From contig JACKPK010000001.1 of NCBI GenBank assembly GCA_024233595.1, positions 60,747 through 124,746 on the forward strand: a stretch of 64,000 nucleotides of DNA, given 5' to 3'. The DNA is from Deltaproteobacteria bacterium (GTDB taxonomy: Bacteria; UBA10199; JADGCS01). Shown one piece after another: positions 49,276-56,457 of this stretch (its first letter is position 1; each line of letters starts with the position of its first letter). Under the pieces are notes generated by a model. That model was not told the DNA's origin. It saw nothing but the letters and a program-made list of their open reading frames with translations, and made no database searches. The translations under genes and the position numbers were made by a program.

Positions 49276-52200
49276 TTAATACAAAGTTTCTCTTACTGCA
49301 TCACTGAAATCTTGGCAATTCGGTCCCAATAAATTGTACTTAATGGTAGAATCATACTGAGAAATAACTTGATTCATTGCCTCTATATTACCGCCATGAA
49401 GTACAGGACCAAAGCGATAGCTTTGTAACACAATTTTTCCTTTAGGGCCTGTTAGAATGTCTTCAAAGGTTCCACCTGTAGTAAAACCTTTATTATAAAC
49501 AACCCCATCTTGTTTCCAAAAAACGTGCTCATGCGCTATATCTAAATTTAATTCGTCGGTAAGAGAAGTTCCTCCCATTGTATTCATAATACTTAATGGT
49601 CTTTTTCCAAAAACTATATCCCCATCTTTTAGAGAATCCGCAAACTGTTCGTATGAATCAAATTTTCTATCAAAAGGACCATAATTTTCTGCATTTATTA
49701 TATCTTCAGCCGTAGCCTTCCCTTCAATAACAGACCCACCAATAGCAGGACCAAAACCTTTACCAATTTTAGCACCCAACATACCTCCAGCAAGGCCTGC
49801 TCCAAAAATCACTATTCCTTTCCACCCACCTTTTGCATAACTTAAACCAGCTCCTGCTGATATCGAAACAGCACTAAAAGCTAATTTAGCTCCAGCACTC
49901 AAAGTCTGCATCCATTTGCCCACACCGCCTGAAAGAGCTCCTGTGACCCCTCCAATTAACGCACCATACAAAGCCCCCTTCAAGCCAGCACTTATCCCAC
50001 CCCCTACAGCTCCTCCTACAAGCCCCCCTGCGGCACCTGCTAACATTGCTTGCCCAAAAGTTGCTTGCGCCAACATTGCACCAAGGCCTGCGAACCCAAT
50101 TCCAAAACCTGAAAGCACAGCCATGGTAACCAGCACACCAATGAGTGCACCCAAGAAAGCGCCCAATATTTTCTTAAAAAATCCCCAAAAATGCCCAGTG
50201 GGGTCCACGTATTTTAAAGGGTTGTTCCGCACATACGAATACCTATTAAAGCTCTGATAATCCTTCGCACTCGGAATGACTGTATCGGGTTGAATAAAAC
50301 GCCCAATCTCTGGATCGTAGTAACGCGCCTTATAATAATACAAACCCGTAGACACATCGTATTCTTGCCCCGTAAAGCGCGGGTCAAATTTTAACCCCGG
50401 GTTTAGAACAAAACTTTCCTGACCATAAGGCGAGTATTCTATGCGTTGCAAAAGATCGCCCTGAGCATAAGTGATGCCAGCGTGCTTGCCACCCTCTTTA
50501 CTGCCTTCTGTTAAAACATGGCTGGATCCCAAATGATCACCATGATGATAATAAAAATAAGTCTCGTCCGAAGACGCAGCCGTGCCCGCACCGGTATCTC
50601 CAGCCCATGCCGGAACCGAAGTGTTGATCACAAACACAAAGGCCAACAACAAACCCACTAATTTTGGAGCTGTGTTTAAAGGCAACTCTGCCAATGCTTG
50701 TCCCATGGCTTGTGTGAAGCGCCTTAAAGTCAGCATTTTTTTAGCCACATAACACAAACACTTTTGAGAAAACGATAAACGCCTGCGGTTAAAGTAGCGG
50801 CCTCGCAATAAATAACGAAACGCCCACACCGGTGTTTTTTGAAACACAGGCCGGAACATGGCAATGAACAAAAGAGCAAACATCATCATGAAGCCTGGAG
50901 CATAAGGCTTGGCACTGGTGAATTTGGCCAAGGTGATTTTACTATCTTTTAAACTTGCACTTGTGGCGCCCAAAAGATCTTCTAAAGAACCCAGTGCCTT
51001 GGTGGCCACACGACTACCACCAGCACTCACGTTAAAAACCATTTGATTGTCTTTTATTTCTAAGACCTCGCCCAAATAATAAGTTGTTTTGGTGTGTTCG
51101 TAACCAGCAGGGTCTTTGCGCGTGGATTTTTTAAGGACACGCATGCCAGAGTAGTCGTAATCGTATTCGACCACCGTGCCATTTTTCATGGTGACTTTGG
51201 TGAGCTTATTGCGAGCATCGTATTCTAATGTGCGCTTGTCATCGCTCACAAGGTTACCATTTTCATCGTAATCAAAACTGCGTTCGCCAATTTTGGTAAC
51301 AGCATGCGGACGACTAGATGTGTACTCGTAAGGCGTGCTACCAAATTTTTCTGAATTGGTGAGGATGTTGCCCTGATTATCGTAAGTCAGGCTATGTGTT
51401 TCTCCTGTAGAAACCACTTTGTAAGATGTGAGACGACTAAGGTTATCGTACTCCACAGCATCCAAAGCCCCCGTGCCTTGCAAGCCCAATGGATCCCCTA
51501 TGGTCTTGATGTTGGCGTACTCATCGTAAGTGTAAGTTCGTTCGGAATAAGTTTGATCGCCTTTGTAAGTCTTTTTATTTTTTAAACGCCCCGAGTTATC
51601 GTAATAGGCATAACTTGATAACACGCCATTGCCAAATTGCTCTGCTAATAAATGACCATAAACATCATAGGCTGTGCTTGGATCAATTTGATAGTACACC
51701 TCGCCCGAGCTTGGGTCACAGGATTCATTGCTGCAAACCTTTATGACTTCGTCTGTGCGGCCGTATTCAAAGTACAAAGATTCGCCACCAGGGTAATGGG
51801 TCGACACAGCCAAACCGCGATCGTTAAAAACCGTGCTTTGCTCAAACTCACCCAGTTCTGGAAAGTTTTTGGTGACCTTGGTTTTGCGACGATAATCTTC
51901 GTCGTAGCCATACTTGGTGCTTCTGATCAAGGTGCCATCAGCCAGGTACTCTTCTATGGCATACAGCTCGCCAACCTGCACATCGTGCACAGAATCGCCA
52001 CTGTCATAAAGATACAACGTGTAGCGTTCTAAGGTCTCGCTTGCATCGTAATGGTTCTTGCGTTCAAGGCGACTAAAGTCATCGTAAATGGTTTCGACAA
52101 CATTGCCTTTACCATCAATCTGGCGTTCCAAACGCCCCTTACGATCGTATTCGTACACCCAGGTTCCCAAATTGGCATCGGTCATTTGGGTTTTTTTACC

Positions 52201-56457: not shown

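What the first reader, a model, noticed from the sequence alone, without database searches (positions are those of the whole stretch)
49276..56457. Sec-exported fused TcB-TcC (BC cocoon) RHS protein with no TcA partner
The 2393-aa ORF combines a cleavable-looking N-terminal signal peptide, six D(M/F)NGDGxxDR beta-propeller repeats of the TcB/FG-GAP kind, a long YD/RHS repeat shell and the RHS core 'DPxGRF...DPTGH' boundary. Tc-toxin B and C components are known to form a cocoon around the C-terminal cargo of TcC, which is released by the RHS-core aspartyl autoprotease. They normally lack signal peptides and dock onto a TcA translocator. Here a BC fusion has a Sec signal and no TcA-like gene nearby. 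No T6SS (VgrG/PAAR) or T7SS context is visible either. The export route and the target (prey periplasm, neighbouring bacteria or a eukaryote) are therefore open. This is the most system-like element in the window.
Basis: partly seen in the sequence, partly recalled or inferred. Interest (0 to 1): 0.8.

Follow-up and report, generated by a model that had tools for sequence, protein, structure and literature searches.

The report
Sec-exported TcB–TcC-type RHS toxin locus
This is a giant secreted bacterial "cocoon" toxin with its own antidote gene, a member of a toxin class described in 2012, but its subfamily has an apparently undescribed internal membrane hairpin and a conserved set of partner genes that may show how such toxins are delivered without the usual injection machines.

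Summary
A structure model of residues 1-1150 matches TcB subunits far better than any other Rhs or teneurin. No TcA, T6SS or T7SS gene lies in the 64-kb window. The architecture is not unusual, though: signal peptide + SpvB + integrin-like propeller + RHS is the "TcdB/TcaC" polymorphic-toxin class of Zhang et al. 2012, and about 90% of 120 relatives have a signal-like N-terminus. The target is probably bacterial. The cargo is a Gly-rich hydrophobic module plus a PPPDE/NlpC-P60-like Cys-His hydrolase tip. The tip and the adjacent 309-aa membrane-anchored protein form a low-GC toxin/immunity cassette that travels together. Two things were missed. (1) A hydrophobic hairpin sits just before the Rhs core: TM1, a K/R-rich loop, then TM2 ending in a signal-peptidase-like AxA or lipobox site. 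It occurs in 34 relatives. (2) A set of envelope genes recurs next to this RHS subfamily in eight loci: a small lipoprotein, an FG-GAP lipoprotein, a β-helix/TSP3 protein and an Ig/TSP3 protein. Verdict: a member of a known kind with a new variant anatomy; moderate interest.

The parts
49276..56457 (-). RHS toxin gene, 2393 aa: signal peptide, SpvB-N, six-bladed FG-GAP propeller, YD shell, internal hairpin, Rhs core and C-terminal cargo
56377..56457 (-). N-terminal Sec-type signal peptide, aa 1-27 (LFA|QS)
   Evidence: Sequence inspection and hydropathy; 109/120 relatives have a similar N-terminus
55666..56259 (-). SpvB/TcaC N-terminal domain, aa 67-264
   Evidence: Pfam PF03534 E 2e-12; phmmer match to TcdB1 6l7i_F; Foldseek hit to the SpvB N-domain 6p0x
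54058..55260 (-). Six-bladed FG-GAP/integrin-like beta-propeller, aa ~400-800 (motifs at 411, 484, 545, 612, 693, 771)
   Evidence: (motif Asp residues invariant in 34 sequences)
50908..54060 (-). YD/RHS repeat shell, aa ~800-1850
   Evidence: Pfam RHS_repeat, NCBIfam YD_repeat_2x and RHS_core; PDB Rhs hits
50599..50901 (-). Internal hydrophobic hairpin: TM1 aa 1853-1873, K/R-rich loop aa 1874-1929 (13 K+R, 1 D+E), TM2 aa 1930-1952 ending VPAWA|GDTG (signal-peptidase-I-like site)
50191..50562 (-). Rhs-associated core, aa 1966-2089, with R2045, D2058 and D2085; predicted autoproteolysis after H2089
   Evidence: NCBIfam TIGR03696 E 4e-25; alignments to TccC3, RhsP and SGS1
49738..50190 (-). Gly-rich hydrophobic (glycine-zipper-like) module, aa 2090-2240; first part of the encapsulated cargo, conserved in P0002-P0006, P0010 and P0012
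   Evidence: the alignment to the SGS1 post-cleavage TM-helix region is composition-biased
49279..49737 (-). Toxin tip, aa 2241-2393: PPPDE/permuted NlpC-P60-like Cys-His hydrolase (H2309/H2311, C2381); GC 0.355
48346..49275 (-). Immunity-like gene, 309 aa, with an N-terminal TM anchor and the rest predicted periplasmic; GC 0.305; 0-nt gap to the toxin gene
   Evidence: 30% identity, E 2e-47, to the gene directly downstream of P0002, the only full-length relative with the same tip. That homologue has a lipobox. Absent next to relatives with other tips
47096..48343 (-). Accessory A: secreted FN3-like/TSP3/2x Ig-like (choice-of-anchor D) protein, 415 aa
45216..47099 (-). Accessory B: secreted right-handed beta-helix (NosD-like) + TSP3 protein, 627 aa
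39094..40158 (-). Accessory D (weak): 354-aa member of a family that lies between A and B in other loci; some members have a subthreshold OmpA-like C-terminus; no signal peptide seen
   Evidence: Profile hit E 1e-10 in a small local database
37831..39090 (-). Accessory C: FG-GAP/VCBS lipoprotein, 419 aa (LLLAAC|K lipobox)
56490..56792 (-). Accessory E: small (100 aa) acidic low-complexity lipoprotein-like gene immediately upstream of the RHS gene
   Evidence: An 88-100-aa gene with a signal peptide or lipobox lies in the same position in 7 of 8 loci examined. Sequences are only partly alike

Best explanation
A TcdB/TcaC-class polymorphic RHS toxin of an uncultivated diderm 'Deltaproteobacteria' MAG, used without TcA and without a T6SS, most likely against neighbouring bacteria.

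Shown: the protein has a Sec-type N-terminus, a TcB-like half (SpvB-N, six-bladed propeller, shell) fused to a TcC-like half (shell, Rhs core with the R/D/D protease triad), and a 304-aa cargo. The cargo is a Gly-rich hydrophobic module followed by a PPPDE/NlpC-P60-superfamily Cys-His hydrolase tip. The tip and the next gene form a low-GC cassette that co-varies among relatives.

Inferred: (1) Sec exports the chain. The shell folds in the periplasm. TM1 stops transfer, the basic loop stays cytoplasmic, and TM2 restarts export. TM2 may then be cut by signal peptidase after A1952, so the core plug and cargo enter the shell while the assembly is held at the inner membrane. (2) The core cleaves after H2089 and the cargo stays inside the cocoon. 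(3) The co-encoded envelope proteins (two lipoproteins, a beta-helix/TSP3 protein, an Ig/TSP3 protein) help to move, display or dock the cocoon. (4) On a target cell the hydrophobic module inserts into a membrane and the hydrolase attacks an envelope substrate. Sibling cells are protected by the membrane-anchored periplasmic immunity protein.
Confidence: 0.72

Rival explanations
1. It is the BC subunit of a classical ABC (Tc) toxin complex aimed at eukaryotic cells. It would dock through its propeller onto a TcA pentamer encoded elsewhere in the genome.
For: The fold of aa 1-1150 matches TcB closely. Natural BC fusions and orphan TcC genes distant from TcA are known (PMC7861908). The rest of the 374-kb contig and genome was not seen.
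Against: No TcA-type gene lies in the 64-kb window or in the ±10-kb flanks of nine related loci. The Sec signal would put it in the periplasm, whereas Tc complexes assemble in the cytoplasm and are released by lysis (PMC10847048 abstract). A cognate immunity-like gene and a recurrent, different set of partner genes are present.
Confidence: 0.06
2. It is a predation or anti-eukaryote effector rather than a kin- or competitor-directed toxin. The cocoon would deliver a membrane-inserting module (as proposed for mosquito SGS1) plus a deubiquitinase/deSUMOylase-like PPPDE enzyme into prey or host cells, and the 309-aa protein would be a chaperone or self-protection factor.
For: PPPDE enzymes are best known from eukaryotic ubiquitin-like pathways, and DeSI-2 (2wp7) is among the fold hits. 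There is an SGS1-like arrangement of TM helices after the protease site. The host lineage is uncultivated and its lifestyle unknown.
Against: The downstream protein is extracytoplasmic and co-varies with the tip as immunity proteins do. Other top fold hits include the antibacterial cell-wall hydrolase TseH. Relatives carry M23 and metallopeptidase tips typical of envelope-directed antibacterial toxins.
Confidence: 0.15
3. The internal hairpin and the neighbouring genes have no special role. The hairpin would be a tolerated hydrophobic surface loop or a relic of a gene fusion, and the accessory genes would merely share a genomic island with the toxin.
For: 75 of 112 full-length relatives lack the hairpin. 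Four family members have no accessory genes within 10 kb. The accessory proteins look like generic adhesins.
Against: The charge asymmetry and the AxA/lipobox features are kept across sequence-divergent variants. Gene order A-D-B-C-E-RHS recurs in MAGs labelled as different taxa, with overlapping or near-zero spacing.
Confidence: 0.3
4. It is a non-toxic surface adhesion or recognition protein of the teneurin type.
For: Teneurin-like bacterial proteins also carry Sec signals and YD shells (PMC13018210). The neighbouring genes encode adhesin-like domains.
Against: SpvB and an FG-GAP propeller replace the FN-plug and NHL propeller. Foldseek gives 1e-12 to TLP against 1e-41 to TcB. The protease triad is intact, the tip's Cys/His motifs are conserved, and an immunity-like gene is present.
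Confidence: 0.03

Closest known systems
TcdB/TcaC-class polymorphic toxins (Zhang, de Souza, Anantharaman, Iyer, Aravind 2012, PMC3482391)
   Same: Signal peptide, SpvB domain, integrin-like beta-propeller, RHS repeats, variable C-terminal toxin and adjacent immunity gene. Delta-proteobacteria are among the listed taxa.
   Different: In the passages I searched, that survey does not describe the hairpin before the Rhs core, the Gly-rich module of this subfamily, a PPPDE-type tip ('PPPDE' has no occurrence in the text held), or the A-E accessory genes.
Photorhabdus TcdB2-TccC3 / TcdB1-TccC2 and Yersinia YenB-YenC2 (BC subunits of ABC toxin complexes; PDB 4o9x, 6l7i, 4igl)
   Same: Best structural match for aa 1-1150 (E 6.5e-41, TMq 0.61): SpvB-N, propeller and shell. 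Same Rhs-core Arg/Asp/Asp protease and encapsulated C-terminal cargo.
   Different: Single chain, Sec signal, no TcA gene nearby, an immunity gene, an internal hairpin, and a cargo with a hydrophobic module. About 12-13% sequence identity in the structural alignment.
Mosquito SGS1/SGS4 (PDB 8fjp, 9on3; PMC9935623)
   Same: Single-chain Tc-like cocoon with the Rhs-core protease triad, followed by Gly-rich predicted TM helices and then a terminal toxin-like domain. The helices are seen packed inside the shell. Best PDB sequence hits for the core-plus-module segment (E 2e-12 and 1e-11).
   Different: Eukaryotic, 3364 aa, nine-bladed propeller and lectin/CBM domains, no classical signal peptide. 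The similarity beyond the cleavage site is compositionally biased.
Sec-signal, T6SS-independent large Rhs toxins (Myxococcus xanthus Rhs4/Rhs5; Bacillus subtilis WapA), as reviewed in PMC10433427
   Same: Large Rhs proteins with signal peptides, polymorphic C-terminal toxins and immunity genes, delivered without a T6SS by an unknown route.
   Different: N-terminal modules were not compared here. No homology was tested beyond the shared class.
TseH (Vibrio cholerae T6SS effector, PDB 6v98), PPPDE/DeSI-2 (2wp7), YiiX-like Cys peptidases (3kw0, 2if6) and the LRAT/PLAAT family
   Different: 7-15% identity, Pfam PPPDE below the gathering score, substrate unknown.
Bacterial teneurin-like proteins (BiTLP, PDB 9ifo/9pt5; PMC13018210)
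   Same: Sec-targeted YD-shell toxins with the Rhs-core protease, polymorphic C-terminal domains and immunity genes, enriched in Myxococcota.
   Different: TLPs are defined by an FN-plug and an NHL propeller. This protein has SpvB-N and an FG-GAP propeller, and it matches TLP only through the shell and core.

Membership tests
TcdB/TcaC-class polymorphic RHS toxin | N-terminal signal peptide | tested here: inconclusive
   Typical n/h/c regions by inspection and hydropathy, and the same feature in 109/120 relatives. No trained predictor was available.
TcdB/TcaC-class polymorphic RHS toxin | SpvB N-terminal domain | tested here: met
   Pfam PF03534 E 2e-12, above the gathering score; phmmer match to TcdB1 at E 1.9e-6.
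TcdB/TcaC-class polymorphic RHS toxin | Integrin-like (FG-GAP) beta-propeller after SpvB | tested here: met
   Six motifs with invariant Asp residues in 34 sequences. The AF2 model superposes on TcB including the propeller. Pfam FG-GAP_3 alone is subthreshold.
TcdB/TcaC-class polymorphic RHS toxin | RHS/YD repeats and an Rhs-associated core ending in PxxxxDPxG | tested here: met
TcdB/TcaC-class polymorphic RHS toxin | Variable C-terminal toxin with a linked immunity gene | tested here: met
   Tips differ among P0001-P0015 after a shared core. The downstream gene co-varies with the tip. The cassette is low in GC. Toxicity and immunity themselves were not tested.
ABC (Tc) toxin complex, BC subunit | TcB-like and TcC-like folds forming a cocoon | tested here: met
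   The TcB half is met by fold search and the TcC core by profile. The closed full-length cocoon was not modelled because of the 1200-aa limit.
ABC (Tc) toxin complex, BC subunit | A TcA translocator gene in the locus or genome | tested here: not met
   None in the 64-kb window or in the flanks of related loci. The rest of the genome could not be tested.
ABC (Tc) toxin complex, BC subunit | Cytoplasmic assembly without a signal peptide | tested here: not met
   A Sec-type N-terminus is present.
ABC (Tc) toxin complex, BC subunit | The propeller binds the TcB-binding domain of TcA | not testable with these tools
   Needs a TcA partner and binding assays or complex modelling.
Bacterial teneurin-like proteins (TLP) | FN-plug + NHL propeller + YD shell superfold | tested here: not met
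   The N-terminal half matches TcB at 6.5e-41 and TLP 9ifo at only 8e-13, TMq 0.11. Sequence hits to TLP are confined to the Rhs core.
T6SS Rhs effectors | PAAR, VgrG or prePAAR N-terminus and a T6SS gene context | tested here: not met
   No such Pfam or NCBIfam hit in the protein or the window.
PPPDE / Peptidase_C97 (toxin tip) | Pfam model above the gathering score | tested here: not met
   18.3 bits against a cut-off of 29.2 for the window tip. All three known members match only subthreshold (best E 2.3e-5).
PPPDE / Peptidase_C97 (toxin tip) | Permuted papain-like fold with a His ... Asn-Cys catalytic arrangement | tested here: inconclusive

The most novel reading that the evidence does not exclude
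The hairpin is a working stop-transfer segment plus an internal signal peptide. It would split a Sec-exported BC cocoon into two parts: a membrane-tethered shell, and a separately translocated plug-plus-toxin that signal peptidase I cleaves or, in lipobox variants, that becomes lipidated. Together with the conserved envelope proteins (small lipoprotein, FG-GAP lipoprotein, beta-helix/TSP3, Ig/TSP3, OmpA-like), it would form an undescribed delivery system for RHS cocoon toxins in diderm bacteria that needs neither TcA nor a T6SS.
Probability: 0.25. Interest if true: 0.8.

Novelty: new variant of a known kind. Interest (0 to 1): 0.45.

Why it matters
How large Sec-signal RHS toxins cross the outer membrane and enter target cells is unknown; the myxobacterial review I read can only presume surface display (PMC10433427). 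This locus offers two concrete, testable handles. The first is a conserved membrane hairpin with signal-peptidase features exactly where the shell meets its plug. It bears on how a C-terminal cargo gets inside a cocoon that is exported N-terminus first. The second is a short list of co-inherited envelope proteins that are candidate export, display or docking factors. If either holds, it would define a third delivery mode for BC-type cocoons, alongside TcA injection and T6SS firing. The fused-BC-with-signal-peptide architecture on its own is ordinary.

Tried and rejected
1. Fetching DNA beyond the window failed. The two peroxidases and P0001 are 'not on record' by exact sequence, so 'TcA just outside the window' could not be tested.
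2. The 1497-aa neighbour as a TcA-like or split-TcA protein: no Pfam, NCBIfam, PADLOC or PDB sequence hit, no signal peptide, helical, and not conserved in related loci. I rejected it as a partner; its function is unknown.
3. Sequence search of the tip against PDB, both as a single sequence and as a 3-sequence profile, gave nothing significant.
4. The homologue search with the tip found only one further relative (P0121), so the tip alignment stayed shallow and the model modest.
5. Glycine-zipper Pfam families for aa 2090-2240: no hit even at E 0.5.
6. Similarity of the small upstream proteins: BLAST found none between the window's copy and L001's. Only position, size and signal/lipobox features are shared.
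7. A literature search for an internal signal peptide or TM hairpin in Rhs proteins found no description. The library is partial, so this is absence of evidence only.
8. The D family as an outer-membrane barrel: the OmpA-like match is subthreshold and no signal peptide is visible, so this is left open.
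Full report
**Observation**

The ORF at 49276-56457 on the minus strand is real: 2393 aa, GTG start, with an AAGGA site 8 nt upstream. It is identical to a deposited protein of a 'Deltaproteobacteria bacterium' MAG, H7A33_00485, on a 374,518-bp contig. All the listed features are present.
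- The N-terminus is Sec-like: MKLAQNNKLKLFILCFGLLLFPFQLFA|QS, with its hydrophobic core at aa 8-29.
- Six D[MF]NGD motifs lie at aa 411, 484, 545, 612, 693 and 771.
- Pfam finds SpvB at aa 67-264 (E 2e-12) and RHS repeats.
- NCBIfam finds the Rhs-associated core at aa 2008-2089 (E 4e-25).
- The protease triad known from TcC/YenC2 maps to R2045, D2058 and D2085, with predicted cleavage after H2089.

**Is it TcB-TcC-like?**

Yes. An AlphaFold2 model of aa 1-1150, built on 34 family sequences (pLDDT 81.7, pTM 0.84), finds TcdB1, TcdB2-TccC3 and YenB at E 6.5e-41 to 1e-33 with TMq 0.5-0.6. T6SS Rhs proteins reach only about 1e-18, and teneurins and bacterial teneurin-like proteins about 1e-12. The N-terminal half is therefore specifically TcB-like, and the C-terminal half carries the TcC-type core.

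**Is it unusual?**

Not as an architecture.
- The homologue search returned well over a hundred single-chain proteins of 2000-2400 aa with SpvB, TcdB_toxin_midN, FG-GAP and RHS domains. They come from Myxococcota, Leptospira, rhizobia, Marinomonas, Verrucomicrobia and many MAGs.
- 109 of the 120 listed have a signal-like hydrophobic N-terminus.
- Zhang et al. [quoted passage not shown]
- A myxobacterial review describes large signal-peptide Rhs toxins that act independently of the T6SS (PMC10433427).
- Natural BC fusions are also noted in the Tc survey (PMC7861908).

**Context**

The rest of the window is housekeeping for a diderm cell: BamA, Skp, LolCDE-like genes, LysS, UvrD, GlmS and others. 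It contains no TcA, T6SS or T7SS gene. DNA beyond the window could not be retrieved.

**Cargo and immunity**

After the cleavage site comes a roughly 150-aa Gly-rich, strongly hydrophobic module (aa 2090-2240). Several close relatives share it while their extreme C-termini differ: HExxH, JAB-like, Ntox44, M23 and others.

The window's tip (aa 2241-2393) has only two known relatives.
- It keeps the AHEHVFW and YNLLGPNCQDF motifs.
- It matches Pfam PPPDE below threshold in all three members.

The gene that starts immediately after the toxin's stop codon (309 aa, N-terminal TM anchor) is 30% identical (E 2e-47) to the gene directly downstream of P0002. P0002 is the only full-length relative with the same tip, and its copy is a lipoprotein. 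Relatives with other tips have unrelated downstream genes. Tip and immunity gene have GC 0.355 and 0.305, against 0.435 for the rest of the gene. This is the signature of a swappable toxin/immunity cassette. Because the immunity protein is extracytoplasmic, the cassette probably acts on the bacterial envelope.

Two hydrophobic segments lie between the last shell repeat and the conserved YFYYHHGDHLGSS start of the core: aa 1853-1873 and aa 1930-1952. A 56-aa loop with 13 K+R and 1 D+E separates them, and the second segment ends ...NTSVPAWA|GDTG.

In the 12 close relatives where both segments were resolved, the pattern is the same. There is a helix-breaking Pro a few residues upstream, small residues at -3 and -1, and then an acidic stretch almost free of K/R.

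Across 34 full-length relatives from two searches:
- the loop holds 294 K+R against 69 D+E;
- the 16 residues after TM2 hold 17 K+R against 54 D+E;
- strict AxA follows TM2 in 17 of 34 but follows TM1 in only 3 of 34.

Other variants end in VxA, or in a lipobox-like Cys in sequences from Leptospira, Myxococcota and elsewhere. Short 'orphan' core-plus-toxin ORFs in the representative library begin at this second segment.

The charge pattern fits the positive-inside rule for a hairpin with a cytoplasmic loop. The second segment looks like an internal signal peptide of type I or type II. The hairpin is absent from 75 of the 112 full-length relatives examined, so it marks subfamilies, not the whole class. 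I found no description of it in the papers I could search. That it is a real membrane hairpin with peptidase processing is an inference.

The toxin, the immunity gene and the next two genes are spaced by 0, 2 and -4 nt.
- **Gene A** (415 aa) is a secreted FN3-like/TSP3/double-Ig protein.
- **Gene B** (627 aa) is a secreted beta-helix/TSP3 protein.

A scan of one genome per species with an alignment of A found seven full-length relatives, all in MAGs. Counting loci reached through the toxin, A occurs in ten distinct loci. Eight of these have an RHS gene of this family next to it, one contig ends too early to tell, and one has A and B but no RHS within 15.8 kb.

Three more genes recur. In L086 the full order is A-D-B-C-E-RHS, and L085, L003 and L002 show parts of it.
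- **Gene C** is an FG-GAP lipoprotein (37831-39090 in the window).
- **Gene D** belongs to a family of 300-510 aa with a subthreshold OmpA-like end. The window copy at 39094-40158 matches the family profile at E 1e-10 in a small local database.
- **Gene E** is a small signal-peptide or lipobox protein of 88-100 aa directly upstream of the RHS gene (56490-56792 in the window).

Four family members (P0002, P0011, P0013, P0003) lack these genes within 10 kb. Three of the four are paralogues in one assembly. The window's 1497-aa gene, which sits between B and D, is not conserved and has no detectable relatives in any library tried.

**Mechanism**

What is shown and what is inferred are set out under the best explanation. 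In short, I read this as a Sec-exported BC-type cocoon toxin with a cognate immunity protein, used in interbacterial antagonism without TcA or a T6SS. The Gly-rich module would serve membrane insertion, as proposed for the TM helices seen inside the SGS1 cocoon (PMC9935623). The hairpin and the A-E proteins are candidates for the unknown assembly and export steps. The weakest link is how a cocoon tethered to the inner membrane would be released and reach a target.

**Verdict**

The protein is a member of a class known since 2012. Its subfamily shows an apparently undescribed anatomy (internal signal-like hairpin, shared hydrophobic cargo module, conserved envelope partners), which I rate as a new variant of a known kind and of moderate interest.

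Noticed in passing
window 59261-60871 and 60879-62507 (-): Two tandem genes encode full-length animal haem peroxidase domains (Pfam An_peroxidase, E 9e-136 and 1.6e-136) in a bacterial MAG, just upstream of the toxin locus.
   Followed up: no
window 40679-45172 (-): A 1497-aa helical protein without a signal peptide, GC 0.392. It has no Pfam, NCBIfam, PADLOC or PDB sequence hit and no counterpart in the related loci. It sits between accessory genes B and D.
   Followed up: partly
L086 17576-19198 and 19514-20617 (downstream of P0015): Two shorter ORFs with weak YD-shell hits, each followed by a small ORF. They look like orphan core+toxin/immunity cassettes of the kind known from rhs loci. The representative library holds many such short ORFs that begin at the TM2-like segment.
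   Followed up: partly
P0052 and P0054 (Leptospira), P0079 (Myxococcota), P0057, P0259: At the same pre-core position, the second hydrophobic segment ends in a lipobox-like Cys (LPGC, VQNC, LSSC, SFGC, FTAC) instead of AxA. This suggests a lipidated core+toxin fragment in those lineages.
   Followed up: partly
L002 17145-24050 (P0012): The C-terminal region of this paralogue consists almost wholly of Gly/Ala-rich hydrophobic sequence with no recognisable enzymatic tip, so it may be a pore-forming cargo. P0010 directly upstream has no separate gene between it and P0012.
   Followed up: no
window 24812-25486 (-): A 224-aa protein with an FHA / YscD-cytoplasmic-like domain lies next to the Skp-BamA cluster. 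There are no other T3SS genes in the window.
   Followed up: no
window 57160-57666 and 57674-59044 (-): A 168-aa multi-pass membrane protein and a 456-aa DUF2846 protein with a signal peptide lie between the toxin locus and the peroxidases. Neither is conserved in the related loci.
   Followed up: partly
window proteins, look-up tool: the look-up of encoding contigs reported P0001 and two window proteins as 'not on record', although search for homologous proteins lists P0001 with one contig of 374,518 bp. The window's own contig was therefore unreachable.
   Followed up: yes
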